Shown in pieces: positions 3,069-3,097 of a DNA stretch of 64,000 bases. Position numbers and translations under genes: made by a program. The DNA comes from Escherichia coli. Its GTDB lineage: Bacteria; Pseudomonadota; Gammaproteobacteria; Enterobacterales; Enterobacteriaceae. Under the pieces are notes generated by a model that saw nothing but the letters and a program-made list of their open reading frames with translations, searched no databases and was not told where the DNA came from. The stretch lies in NCBI RefSeq assembly GCF_003334815.1, contig NZ_QOWO01000021.1; one strand, written 5' to 3'. The first letter of the stretch is position 1. Each line of letters begins with the position of its first letter.

Positions 3069-3097
3069 CTGATTATTAGCCGTCAGGCTCACCCAAA

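What the first reader, a model, noticed from the sequence alone, without database searches (positions are those of the whole stretch)
3078..3096. 16-bp sequence CCGTCAGGCTCACCCA repeated at 3080-3095 and 6065-6080, each at the 3-prime end of a minus-strand frame ending ...IKR..G..G
The same 16-mer occurs directly after the cassette-2 immunity gene and directly after the IS200 right end. In both places the minus strand translates to a similar C-terminal peptide (RPAIKREYGQFG-stop and MPVIKRGDGHCG-stop). This suggests two remnants of one gene family or a conserved junction where cassettes were exchanged.
Basis: seen in the sequence. Interest (0 to 1): 0.35.

Follow-up and report, generated by a model that had tools for sequence, protein, structure and literature searches.

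The report
Two symE toxin-gene stubs bordering CDI cassettes
The repeated 16-mer is the last codon, stop codon and first 9 untranslated bases of two broken, diverged copies of a SymE-family toxin gene; each copy travelled with a different contact-dependent-inhibition (CDI) toxin/immunity cassette, so the pair are ordinary recombination scars that also show how such cassette arrays are assembled.

Summary
CCGTCAGGCTCACCCA occurs only at 3080-3095 and 6065-6080. It lies inside about 155-170 nt of real homology (64% DNA identity, one 1-nt indel).

The parent gene is a roughly 115-aa SymE-family type I toxin (PF08845). This is a subfamily distinct from E. coli K-12 SymE, with a C-terminal extension of about 50 aa. 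On the minus strand the 16-mer reads T-GGG-TGA-GCCTGACGG: the last Gly codon, the stop codon and the start of the 3'UTR.

- **Copy A (3072-~3231)** keeps only codons ~69-115. It has a 1-nt deletion and has lost its terminator. It is fused by 4-5 nt of microhomology to a VENN-less cdiA-CT.
- **Copy B (6074-6304)** keeps codons 40-115 and lacks the canonical N-terminus. IS200 (5352-6061) separates it from its partner cdiI and from its native terminator.

Each allele is linked to its own cassette in other strains. A goes with the CPCC cdiI in 67 E. coli genomes. B goes with the ribonuclease CdiI. Strains that share the right flank but carry other cassettes switch from 82-86% to ~100% identity inside symE. 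In 18 of 37 loci from other genera, a relative lies convergent to cdiA/cdiI.

"Exchange junction" is only partly right, because the junction is the gene, not the 16-mer. The finding is ordinary, with a modestly interesting by-product.

The parts
3080..3095 (-). 16-mer, copy 1. On the minus strand it reads T GGG TGA GCCTGACGG: the last Gly codon, the stop codon (3089-3091) and the first 9 nt of the 3'UTR of symE remnant A.
6065..6080 (-). 16-mer, copy 2. It occupies the same position in symE copy B (stop codon at 6074-6076).
3072..3231 (-). symE remnant A. It comprises about 17 nt of 3'UTR plus codons ~69-115 (...EPYGCAEELCVVSVNGPKIKRWLRAFPSVLNETG[fs]RPAIKREYGQFG*). It has no start codon, no AbrB-like core domain and no terminator, and is unannotated in RefSeq.
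   Evidence: its limits come
3130..3132 (-). Frameshift site in remnant A. The window has a run of three C (GGG on the minus strand). Plasmid pO104_H21 and several chromosomes have four, which restores the frame ...ETGDRPAIKREFGQFG*.
   Evidence: (181-nt versus 180-nt matches)
3227..3231 (.). Illegitimate joint between the symE-A interior and the cdiA-CT interior. GGTTC/GAACC is shared by both parents, giving 4-5 nt of microhomology.
   Evidence: cdiA matches start at 3227; full-length cdiA of CFS3292...GAGSLLTSSATLTEK
2449..2883 (+). Orphan cassette 2 toxin (VENN followed by the CT). It is fused to a cdiA in strain USMARC-49610.
   Evidence: (D2)
2883..3068 (+). Cassette 2 immunity gene (CPCC-family cysteine-rich protein, WP_071531845.1). 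It was next to symE remnant A in all 25 records listed.
3227..3748 (+). Cassette 3: a 5'-truncated cdiA-CT with no VENN. Its first ~250-360 nt are shared with several other cdiA toxins.
3970..4940 (+). Orphan cassette 4 toxin (VENNYLS..., DUF6862-type, with an internal stop at 4795-4797). It is the CT of the full-length cdiA in strain ERP001.
4950..5315 (+). Cassette 4 immunity gene cdiI (WP_001046155.1; NCBIfam NF033826, 200.7 bits against a cut-off of 60).
5319..5350 (.). Bidirectional terminator hairpin that normally sits between cdiI and symE-B. Here IS200 cuts it off from symE.
5352..6061 (+). IS200 (STnc490 RNA at 5361-5484, tnpA at 5494-5952). It is inserted between the terminator and the symE-B 3'UTR. 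Its right-end hairpin (6034-6052) now lies 22 nt downstream of the symE-B stop.
6074..6304 (-). symE copy B. It corresponds to residues 40-115 of the family and is 83% identical to E. coli P0002. RefSeq calls it a 79-aa SymE family toxin, or 'incomplete, missing N-terminus'.
6265..6305 (-). The most conserved block of symE (encoding AGFTDGMPVKIR), and the zone where strain comparisons switch parentage.
6305..6545 (.). B-type 5' region. It is not detectably homologous to the canonical SymE N-terminus and has an in-frame stop at 6401-6403. It carries a promoter-like site on the + strand (6362-6390).
6563..7303 (+). C-terminal fragment of hsdR, forming the right flank. It is shared at ~100% identity with strain O22:H8 154, which carries a different cassette.

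Best explanation
The two 16-mers are the homologous ends (last Gly codon, TGA stop and first 9 nt of 3'UTR) of two diverged, non-functional 3' fragments of a SymE-family type I toxin gene.

In Enterobacterales this symE subfamily typically lies tail-to-tail with cdiI at the distal end of a cdiBAI locus, separated from it by a shared terminator. The 3' part of symE is inherited together with the cdiA-CT/cdiI cassette next to it.

- **Copy B** is the symE that belongs to cassette 4 (ribonuclease CT plus CdiI). An IS200 has since inserted between them.
- **Copy A** came in with cassette 2 (CT plus CPCC immunity gene). Its 5' two-thirds were lost when that incoming segment was joined, at 4-5 nt of microhomology, to the interior of the resident toxin (cassette 3). 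Cassette 3 thereby lost its VENN and became a displaced orphan.

The 16-mer has no shown function of its own. It is simply the best-conserved stretch of the alignment.

Shown: gene identity, fragment limits, linkage to cassettes, and mosaic identity profiles.

Inferred: the order of events, and that the conserved symE core serves as the right-hand homology arm for cassette replacement.
For: **Gene identity**
- RefSeq names copy B a SymE family toxin.
- 35 homologues were found, most carrying a precomputed PF08845 hit.
- All 13 full-length relatives in alignment A3 match PF08845, with best i-E 6.7e-15.
- Copy B matches residues 40-115 of P0002 (E = 5e-41). Copy A matches residues ~67-115 (E = 1e-12). 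Nothing else in the window matches.

**Frameshift in copy A**
- The plasmid allele has one extra G and an intact frame.

**Cassette linkage**
- The A-type remnant occurs in 67 of 5426 E. coli genomes. The CPCC cdiI lies beside it in all 25 records listed and in every locus opened, including STEC plasmids.
- B-type symE lies next to cdiI WP_001046155.1 in ERP001, after a full-length cdiA and without IS200. The same is true in strain 1303.

**Displacement architecture**
- USMARC-49610 has cdiB, then cdiA carrying CT2, then CPCC, then symE-A', then a VENN-less CT.
- cdiA homology starts at 3227.

**Mosaicism**
- Window versus O22:H8 154: ~100% identity right of about 6270, 82-86% across 6083-6207, and none left of the stop codon, with a different cdiA-CT/cdiI.
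- O22_154 and strain 48 combine an M19-like 3' part with a B-like 5' region.

**Generality**
- In 18 of 37 loci from other genera, a CdiA/VENN homologue lies within the 10-kb flanks. In most it is on the opposite strand, about 0.7-2.8 kb downstream of the symE stop.
- MSI001 and M19 show the same arrangement.
- The literature notes symE inside CDI/HecA clusters only in passing (PMC11278526; bioRxiv 10.1101/2021.01.28.428661).
Against: - No intact parent of the A allele (over 80% identity) exists among complete E. coli genomes. Its history is therefore reconstructed, not observed.
- symE is absent from two of the four cassette boundaries in this array. It is not an obligatory cassette end.
- The order 'acquisition with an illegitimate right joint' cannot be told apart from 'a later deletion spanning the symE 5' part and the next VENN'.
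- The 16-nt run is somewhat longer than uniform divergence predicts (P = 0.02-0.045). A small local constraint on the 3'UTR cannot be excluded.
- The homology-arm role rests on two or three strain comparisons, not on a recombination test across many genomes.
Confidence: 0.85

Rival explanations
1. The 16-mer is a functional site in its own right. It could be the core of a site-specific recombination or attachment site, or an integron-like cassette end, at which CDI cassettes are cut and joined.
For: - It sits at two cassette ends.
- It is the only long identical run in a 64%-identical alignment (P = 0.02-0.045).
- Related 3'UTR sequence (G.CTGACGGCTGATAA) recurs in Pantoea, Siccibacter and Franconibacter.
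Against: - It is absent from the cassette 1/2 and 3/4 boundaries.
- It is absent from O22:H8 154 and MSI001 symE alleles that still abut cdiI.
- Only 2-mismatch variants were found in other genera.
- It lies inside a homologous gene end, not at a homology breakpoint.
- The actual breakpoints map elsewhere, at about 3227-3231 and about 6265-6305.
- No integrase is annotated within 9 kb on either side of it in the identical locus of strain EC556.
Confidence: 0.04
2. The 16-mer belongs to, or was created by, IS200. It would be an IS end, a target-site duplication or a preferred target.
For: Copy 2 starts 3 nt from the IS200 right end.
Against: - ERP001 has the same 16-mer in the same place with no IS200.
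- Copy 1 and the plasmid copies have no IS200 nearby.
- IS200 here separates the terminator from the symE 3'UTR and leaves both flanks intact.
Confidence: 0.02
3. The symE copies are not mere scars. The convergent symE (or its 3' stub and terminator) is a selected, working part of CDI loci. It could act as an addiction or SOS-responsive module that stabilises the cassette, or as an insulator that stops antisense read-through into cdiI. That would explain why the 3' end is retained and locally conserved.
For: - There is a strong, cross-genus, convergent linkage with cdiA/cdiI. The gene is also linked with Hcp-effector islands.
- The terminator between cdiI and symE is conserved.
- Intact ~115-aa members exist.
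- A promoter-like site lies antisense to the B-type 5' region.
Against: - In this window both copies lack the N-terminus. Copy A also lacks the core domain and the terminator and is frameshifted.
- Alleles in MSI001, M19 and strain 48 are also frameshifted or deleted.
- Loss is evidently tolerated, as expected for a hitchhiker.
- No functional data exist.
Confidence: 0.15
4. The 16-mer identity is a recent micro gene-conversion between the two copies, which lie 3 kb apart in direct orientation in this array.
For: A short identical tract is flanked by about 60% identity.
Against: The same 16-mer is present in A-type copies on plasmids that have no B copy nearby. It is also present in B-type copies (ERP001) that have no A copy nearby. 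The identity therefore predates this array.
Confidence: 0.03

Closest known systems
symE/symR type I toxin-antitoxin of E. coli K-12 (SOS-induced SymE, AbrB/MazE-like fold; PF08845, NCBIfam PRK13605)
   Same: The AbrB-like core is homologous. Full-length relatives of the window copies hit PF08845 (13 of 13). They hit the K-12 model over positions 30-75 (E down to 1e-11).
   Different: - Scores of 38-45 bits fall far below the equivalog cut-off of 132 bits.
- This subfamily has a conserved C-terminal extension of about 50 aa (...RELWGCAEGLSV..VNRPKM.QW.K.FPGALNDTGD.PVIKRG.GH.G). That extension is exactly the part retained in copy A.
- There is no Rfam SymR match.
- The genomic partner is cdiI/cdiA rather than hsdS.
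- Both window copies are truncated.
Orphan cdiA-CT/cdiI arrays and the 'displaced 3' ends / fossil record' model (Poole et al. 2011, PMC3150448; Ruhe et al. 2016, PMC4927057)
   Same: - The window holds a tandem array of VENN-CT/immunity pairs in one orientation.
- The same CTs are fused to full-length cdiA in other strains.
- IS elements are interspersed.
- One CT lacks VENN.
   Different: Neither paper's text contains the terms symE or yjiW. Here a fragment of the gene beyond cdiI is carried along with the cassette. This dates and delimits one acquisition, and it shows a right-hand crossover zone outside the cdi genes.
[quoted passage not shown]
   Same: The subfamily is the same: the M19 allele is 86% identical to copy B. 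The place and orientation are the same: after cdiI, on the opposite strand, followed by orphans.
   Different: In those cases the gene is complete or nearly so, and it was reported as an unrelated inserted toxin. Here there are only 3' stubs, and comparison shows that they co-inherit with cassettes.
Rhs core/tip replacement and orphan use by duplication-recombination (Salmonella rhs work as summarised in PMC4927057)
   Same: A variable toxin/immunity tip is exchanged by recombination in conserved flanking sequence, and the displaced tips are kept as orphans.
   Different: In Rhs systems the described homology lies within rhs itself. Here the distal homology appears to be an unrelated neighbouring gene.

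Membership tests
SymE family type I toxin (PF08845) | SymE_toxin / AbrB-like core domain detectable in the sequence | tested here: met
   Copy B: Pfam i-E 0.0046 over 24 residues, and 83% identity to P0002 over residues 40-115. P0002 hits PF08845 at 4.9e-14, and all 13 relatives hit it. Copy A covers only the C-terminal extension outside the Pfam model. Its membership rests on homology to the family's C-terminus (E = 1e-12; alignment).
SymE family type I toxin (PF08845) | Complete ORF (~110-115 aa) with start codon and N-terminal region | tested here: not met
   Copy A has only codons ~69-115 and is frameshifted. Copy B has only residues 40-115, with an in-frame stop at 6401-6403. RefSeq flags the O22:H8 154 allele (94% identical to copy B) as 'missing N-terminus'.
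SymE family type I toxin (PF08845) | Orthology to K-12 SymE (NCBIfam equivalog PRK13605, cut-off 132 bits) | tested here: not met
   Full-length relatives score 38-45 bits and P0001 (97% identical to copy B) scores 19 bits. This is a distinct subfamily.
SymE family type I toxin (PF08845) | cis-encoded antisense RNA (SymR) overlapping the 5' end of the toxin mRNA | tested here: inconclusive
   There is no Rfam SymR match in 1-9000. A promoter-like site (TCGCCA-17-TATAAT with an extended -10) lies on the antisense strand at 6362-6390. That is a consensus match only.
SymE family type I toxin (PF08845) | SOS (LexA) control and toxicity on expression | not testable with these tools
   This needs experiments. 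No LexA-box analysis was completed.
Orphan cdiA-CT/cdiI array (CDI system) | VENN pre-toxin motif opening each CT, followed by a small immunity gene, all in one orientation | tested here: met
   GTTGAGAATAAT occurs at 1414, 2449 and 3970 (family D2). RefSeq annotates VENN pre-toxin and CdiI proteins. The CdiI equivalog NF033826 scores 200.7 bits for 4950-5312. Cassette 3 is the exception: it has no VENN and starts at 3227.
Orphan cdiA-CT/cdiI array (CDI system) | The same CT/immunity pairs are fused to full-length cdiA elsewhere | tested here: met
   CT4/cdiI is fused to cdiA in ERP001. CT2/CPCC is fused to cdiA in USMARC-49610. A CT3-type is fused in CFS3292.
Dispersed repeat, IS end or attachment site (for the 16-mer itself) | Occurs at many unrelated sites or at element termini, with homology ending at the repeat | tested here: not met
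   There are only 2 copies in the window. In about 0.7 Mb of related loci, exact copies occur only at symE 3' ends. Homology continues about 140 nt into the gene. The 16-mer is present without IS200 in ERP001.
IS200 (IS200/IS605 family) | ~0.7-kb element with Y1 transposase tnpA and a structured 5' RNA | tested here: met
   STnc490 scores 140.6 bits at 5361-5484. tnpA is annotated. The empty site in ERP001 defines the element as 5352-6061.

The most novel reading that the evidence does not exclude
A distinct SymE subfamily (AbrB-like core plus a ~50-aa C-terminal extension) is a systematic, convergent 'bookend' of CDI toxin/immunity cassettes across Enterobacterales, and of some T6SS Hcp-effector cassettes. 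Its conserved core would serve as the distal homology arm for cassette replacement. The mobile unit would then be VENN-CT-cdiI-symE(3'), and symE stubs inside orphan arrays would record individual acquisitions. A stronger version holds that the toxin gene is selected there, as a stabiliser or insulator of the cassette.
Probability: 0.4. Interest if true: 0.55.

Novelty: already known. Interest (0 to 1): 0.33.

Why it matters
For this window, the result turns a puzzling repeat into a precise map. The array holds two former locus ends: cassette 2 with symE-A', and cassette 4 with symE-B. It also holds one illegitimate joint and one IS200 insertion.

More generally, how orphan cdiA-CT/cdiI arrays grow, and where the right-hand crossover of cassette exchange falls, has been discussed only as a model. 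A flanking gene whose 3' part co-inherits with the cassette, and whose 5' part stays with the chromosome, gives a concrete sequence marker. That makes the models testable by breakpoint mapping across genomes and by recombination assays.

The symE-CDI linkage appears in the literature searched here only as passing remarks.

Tried and rejected
- **Chance repeat.** Rejected: 0.04 sites are expected, and the surrounding homology is extended.
- **IS200 end or target duplication.** Rejected using the empty site in ERP001.
- **General cassette-junction motif.** Rejected: no copy at other cassette boundaries, even with 2 mismatches, and missing from the O22:H8 154 and MSI001 alleles.
- **Family-wide invariant 3' element.** Rejected: only 2-mismatch variants were found in 39 loci from other genera.
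- **RNA structure involving the 16-mer.** RNAalifold finds only the terminator hairpin, and the 16-mer is unpaired.
- **Rfam SymR.** No match. The only real hit is STnc490 of IS200.
- **Linkage of this subfamily to type I restriction genes, as for K-12 symE.** No hsdR/hsdM hits were found in any of the cross-genus loci. The hsdR' fragment here is just the local flank.
- **Canonical N-terminus upstream of copy B.** tblastn with word size 2 and E up to 10 finds nothing for residues 1-39 in 6305-6545.
- **Intact parent allele of copy A.** A search of 5426 E. coli genomes found none. The closest intact-length relative is 76% identical (MSI001) and is itself frameshifted.

Full report
**1. The observation**

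CCGTCAGGCTCACCCA occurs exactly twice in the 64-kb window, at 3080-3095 and 6065-6080. No further site appears with up to two mismatches, and 0.04 sites are expected from shuffles.

Read on the minus strand it is T GGG TGA GCCTGACGG. The two tails are RPAIKREYGQFG* (stop at 3089-3091) and MPVIKRGDGHCG* (stop at 6074-6076).

- Copy 1 begins 11 nt after the stop codon of the cassette-2 immunity gene (2883-3068, CPCC family).
- Copy 2 begins 3 nt after the right end of IS200.

The similarity is not confined to 16 bp. The two regions align over about 170 columns with 109 identities and one 1-nt indel.

**2. The parent gene**

Megablast of 6040-6560 against 5426 complete E. coli genomes hits 32 genomes. 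The feature under the match is annotated 'SymE family type I toxin'.

A protein search returned 35 relatives from Escherichia, Franconibacter, Pantoea, Kluyvera, Cronobacter, Enterobacter, Klebsiella and Proteus. Most carry a precomputed PF08845 hit. The consensus is about 115 aa: MAKRDCKSEP.TTEAPQPTTRCEFYSRAVHNAIFLRGEWI.QAGFTDGMPVKIRVMPDCIVITTQNTRELWGCAEGLSV..VNRPKM.QWLK.FPGALNDTGDLPVIKRG.GH.G.

- All 13 full-length members tested hit Pfam SymE_toxin, at residues 31-64 of the first member.
- Against the NCBIfam model of K-12 SymE they score 38-45 bits over the core only. The equivalog cut-off is 132 bits.

This is therefore a separate SymE subfamily with its own C-terminal extension of about 50 residues.

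tblastn of six family members against the whole window finds only two segments:

| Segment | Family residues | Identity / E-value |
|---|---|---|
| 6304-6077 | 40-115 of P0002 | 83%, E = 5e-41 |
| 3237/3231-3130, continuing in another frame to 3092 | ~67-115 | E down to 8e-13 |

**3. Anatomy of copy A (3072-~3231, minus strand)**

Copy A retains only the C-terminal extension plus about 17 nt of 3'UTR.

The otherwise 97%-identical copy on plasmid pO104_H21 has the extra G and reads ...ETGDRPAIKREFGQFG*. Several chromosomal copies also align as 181 nt against 180 nt.

*Right-hand limit.* Matches to cdiA genes of other strains begin at window 3227. In the full-length cdiA of strain CFS3292 that point lies inside the toxin region (...WGTVAGAGSLLTSSATLTEK...). 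SymE homology (RELYGCAEG versus NEPYGCAEE) runs to about 3231. The joint therefore sits in GGTTC/GAACC (3227-3231), which both parents share. It is an illegitimate junction with 4-5 nt of microhomology. This explains why cassette 3 is the one cassette in the array without VENN.

*Left-hand limit.* SymE-derived 3'UTR (GCCTGACGGCTAATAA) runs to within 4-7 nt of the CPCC stop codon. The terminator hairpin that follows symE in other alleles is missing.

**4. Anatomy of copy B (6074-6304, minus strand)**

Strain ERP001 carries a full-length cdiA with the cassette-4 toxin and the identical cdiI (WP_001046155.1). These are followed by a hairpin terminator and then the same symE allele (98.6% identical), with no IS200.

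Comparison with ERP001 places IS200 at 5352-6061. It lies between the terminator (5319-5350) and the symE 3'UTR. STnc490 at 5361-5484 and tnpA confirm the element. The IS200 right-end hairpin (6034-6052) now scores as a minus-strand terminator 22 nt downstream of the symE stop.

Upstream of residue 40 the sequence (6305-6545) is not detectably related to the canonical N-terminus. It contains an in-frame stop at 6401-6403. RefSeq annotates the gene either as a 79-aa protein or, in O22:H8 strain 154, as 'incomplete, missing N-terminus'.

Both window copies are thus 3' fragments. No intact symE is present.

**5. Each symE allele travels with its cassette**

- The A-type remnant is found in 67 of 5426 genomes (46 chromosomal and 26 plasmid places). 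Fifty-four of these are at 95% identity or more.
- The CPCC cdiI lies next to it in all 25 records listed and in every locus opened.
- No intact A-type gene was found. The closest intact-length relative is 76% identical.
- In strain USMARC-49610 the order is cdiB, then cdiA ending in CT2, then CPCC, then symE-A', then a VENN-less CT, then further orphans. Cassette 2 is here in the active position, with a displaced and beheaded toxin behind the symE stub.
- On pO104_H21 the stub is cut 10 nt shorter by an IS66-family end.
- The B-type allele accompanies cdiI WP_001046155.1 in the window, in ERP001 and in strain 1303. In strain 1303 an IS66-family end cuts it to 134 nt.

**6. Exchange breakpoints lie inside symE, not at the 16-mer**

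O22:H8 strain 154 has the same right flank as the window (symE, hsdR', hsdM', helicase). It carries a complete cdiA with a different CT and a 75-aa immunity gene directly beside symE.

Identity between the window and this strain changes across symE:

| Window region | Identity |
|---|---|
| Right of about 6270 | ~100% |
| 6083-6207 | 82-86% |
| Left of the stop codon | none |

The O22:H8 154 3'UTR (TAA TATCTGATAAAAC) lacks the 16-mer.

In a five-way alignment, O22_154 and strain 48 are M19-like in the 3' part of symE and B-like from about 6305 onward. M19 itself is unrelated there. The switch falls in the most conserved block of the gene, which encodes AGFTDGMPVKIR. I read this as recombination within symE that reassorts cassettes against the chromosomal flank. 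That is an inference from three comparisons.

**7. Generality**

A scan of one genome per species found 39 loci encoding relatives.

- In 18 of the 37 usable loci a CdiA/VENN homologue lies within the 10-kb flanks. In most it is on the opposite strand, with its VENN about 0.7-2.8 kb past the symE stop. That is a convergent cdiA-cdiI / symE arrangement.
- Genera include Franconibacter, Enterobacter, Cedecea, Siccibacter, Izhakiella, Pseudenterobacter, Pantoea, Lelliottia and Prodigiosinella.
- Several loci have VENN fragments on both sides of symE, and F. helveticus has two symE copies 2.7 kb apart.
- Four more loci abut an Hcp (TssD, 98 bits) plus small-ORF island.
- One locus lies about 1.1 kb from a CdiI equivalog (212.6 bits).
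- Two loci abut toxin-like C-terminal fragments with small downstream ORFs.
- No locus had hsdR/hsdM homologues.

E. coli MSI001 and M19 show the same layout.

Published notes are anecdotal. [quoted passage not shown] Another reports SymE genes between HecA ORFs and in a T6SS Rhs cluster of Dickeya zeae. Neither of the two key papers on orphan modules contains the terms symE or yjiW.

**8. Status of the 16-mer itself**

- Across alleles the region after the stop reads G.CTGACGGCTGATAAA, followed by the hairpin GATCCCGGC...GCCGGGATC. There is a 6-nt presence/absence polymorphism within the CTGACGG|CTGATAA stretch.
- The exact 16-mer is shared by A-type and B-type E. coli alleles. M19 and strain 1303 differ at one base. 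The closest in other genera is Pantoea dispersa (GGGTAAGTCTGACGG). It is absent from O22:H8 154 and MSI001.
- RNAalifold pairs only the terminator, not the 16-mer.
- Within the A/B alignment a run of 16 or more has P = 0.02-0.045.

I conclude it is the locally best-conserved stretch of a homologous gene end. There may be slight constraint on the stop/3'UTR, but there is no evidence of an independent function.

**9. Mechanism, with levels of support**

*Shown:* gene identity, fragment limits, the frameshift, the IS200 insertion site, allele-cassette linkage, the mosaic identity profiles, and the cross-genus convergent linkage.

*Inferred:*
- (a) Cassette 2 entered as a segment [cdiA'-VENN-CT2-CPCC-symE 3'...]. 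Its right end was joined illegitimately inside the resident toxin, preserving the resident immunity genes. An alternative I cannot exclude is a later deletion from the symE 5' part into the next cassette.
- (b) Later acquisitions pushed cassette 2 into an orphan position.
- (c) The symE core acts as the distal homology arm in clean replacements.
- (d) Only 3' stubs survive because they are nearest the selected cdiI, and because an unregulated toxin gene is readily lost.

**10. Verdict**

'Two remnants of one gene family' is correct, and 'exchange junction' is partly correct. The elements involved are all known kinds: a SymE-family gene, orphan CDI cassettes and IS200. The finding itself is therefore ordinary. 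The by-product is moderately interesting and testable: a SymE subfamily that acts as a recurrent bookend and probable recombination arm of polymorphic-toxin cassettes.

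Noticed in passing
L004-L042 (cross-genus loci); window 3072-3231 and 6074-6304: This SymE subfamily is strongly linked to polymorphic-toxin loci. A CdiA/VENN homologue lies within the 10-kb flanks in 18 of 37 loci, mostly convergent and about 0.7-2.8 kb downstream. Four further loci abut Hcp islands, one lies near a CdiI equivalog and two abut toxin-like fragments. No locus is linked to hsd genes. The literature mentions this only anecdotally.
   Followed up: partly
window 5352-6061: IS200 is inserted exactly between the cdiI/symE bidirectional terminator (5319-5350) and the symE-B 3'UTR. The IS right-end hairpin (6034-6052) now mimics a terminator 22 nt downstream of the symE stop. 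The last 16 nt of the IS (GGATATTTATTTAACC) resemble the replaced sequence (GGATCTTTCTTTAACC).
   Followed up: partly
window 6362-6390 (+ strand): A near-consensus promoter-like site (TCGCCA-17-TATAAT with TG extension) lies antisense to the 5' region of symE-B. That is where a SymR-like antisense RNA would start. There is no Rfam SymR match. The 6305-6545 region is 98-100% conserved across three different right-flank contexts.
   Followed up: no
window 3227-3590: The first ~250-360 nt of the truncated cassette-3 toxin are shared at 92-98% identity with many cdiA genes whose distal toxin domains differ. Matches end at about 3478 or about 3589. This suggests a shared N-terminal CT subdomain and further recombination points inside the CT.
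   Followed up: no
L002 5935-6000; L045 8135-8200: The same IS66-family terminal sequence (...AATGAATGTCGGTAATGCTAACTGACTGAAAATCGCTGTGAAGATGACTTCCCCGTAACGACAC) truncates an A-type symE stub on pO104_H21 and a B-type stub in E. coli 1303. The truncation points differ (132 nt and 110 nt from the stop). These are two independent hits in a small target.
   Followed up: no
L003 5985-6030; L043 7942-8259; L047 7990-8000: Other E. coli symE alleles of this subfamily are also damaged. MSI001 has an 11-nt deletion at RELYGC. M19 has a 2-nt deletion near the C-terminus that leads to read-through. Strain 48 has an internal deletion of about 100 nt. Decay of this gene next to CDI loci appears common.
   Followed up: partly
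window 6563-11459: The right flank holds an hsdR C-terminal fragment (6563-7303) and an hsdM N-terminal fragment (7367-8110). These are followed by an intact 1093-aa DEAD/DEAH-box helicase ORF (8178-11459) and, in O22:H8 154, a phosphorothioate-dependent restriction endonuclease pseudogene further on. This may be a decayed defence island.
   Followed up: no
window 1141-1923 and 4795-4800: Cassette 1 (polymorphic toxin type 25 domain) is frameshifted. Cassette 4 toxin has an internal TAA at 4795-4797. The toxin genes decay while the immunity ORFs (1954-2409, 4950-5315) stay intact.
   Followed up: no
alignment (3'UTR of symE alleles): Alleles differ by a 6-nt presence/absence within CTGACGG|CTGATAA just after the stop codon. 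Depending on the allele, the stop is TGA, TAA or lies two codons further on (..FSGA*).
   Followed up: no
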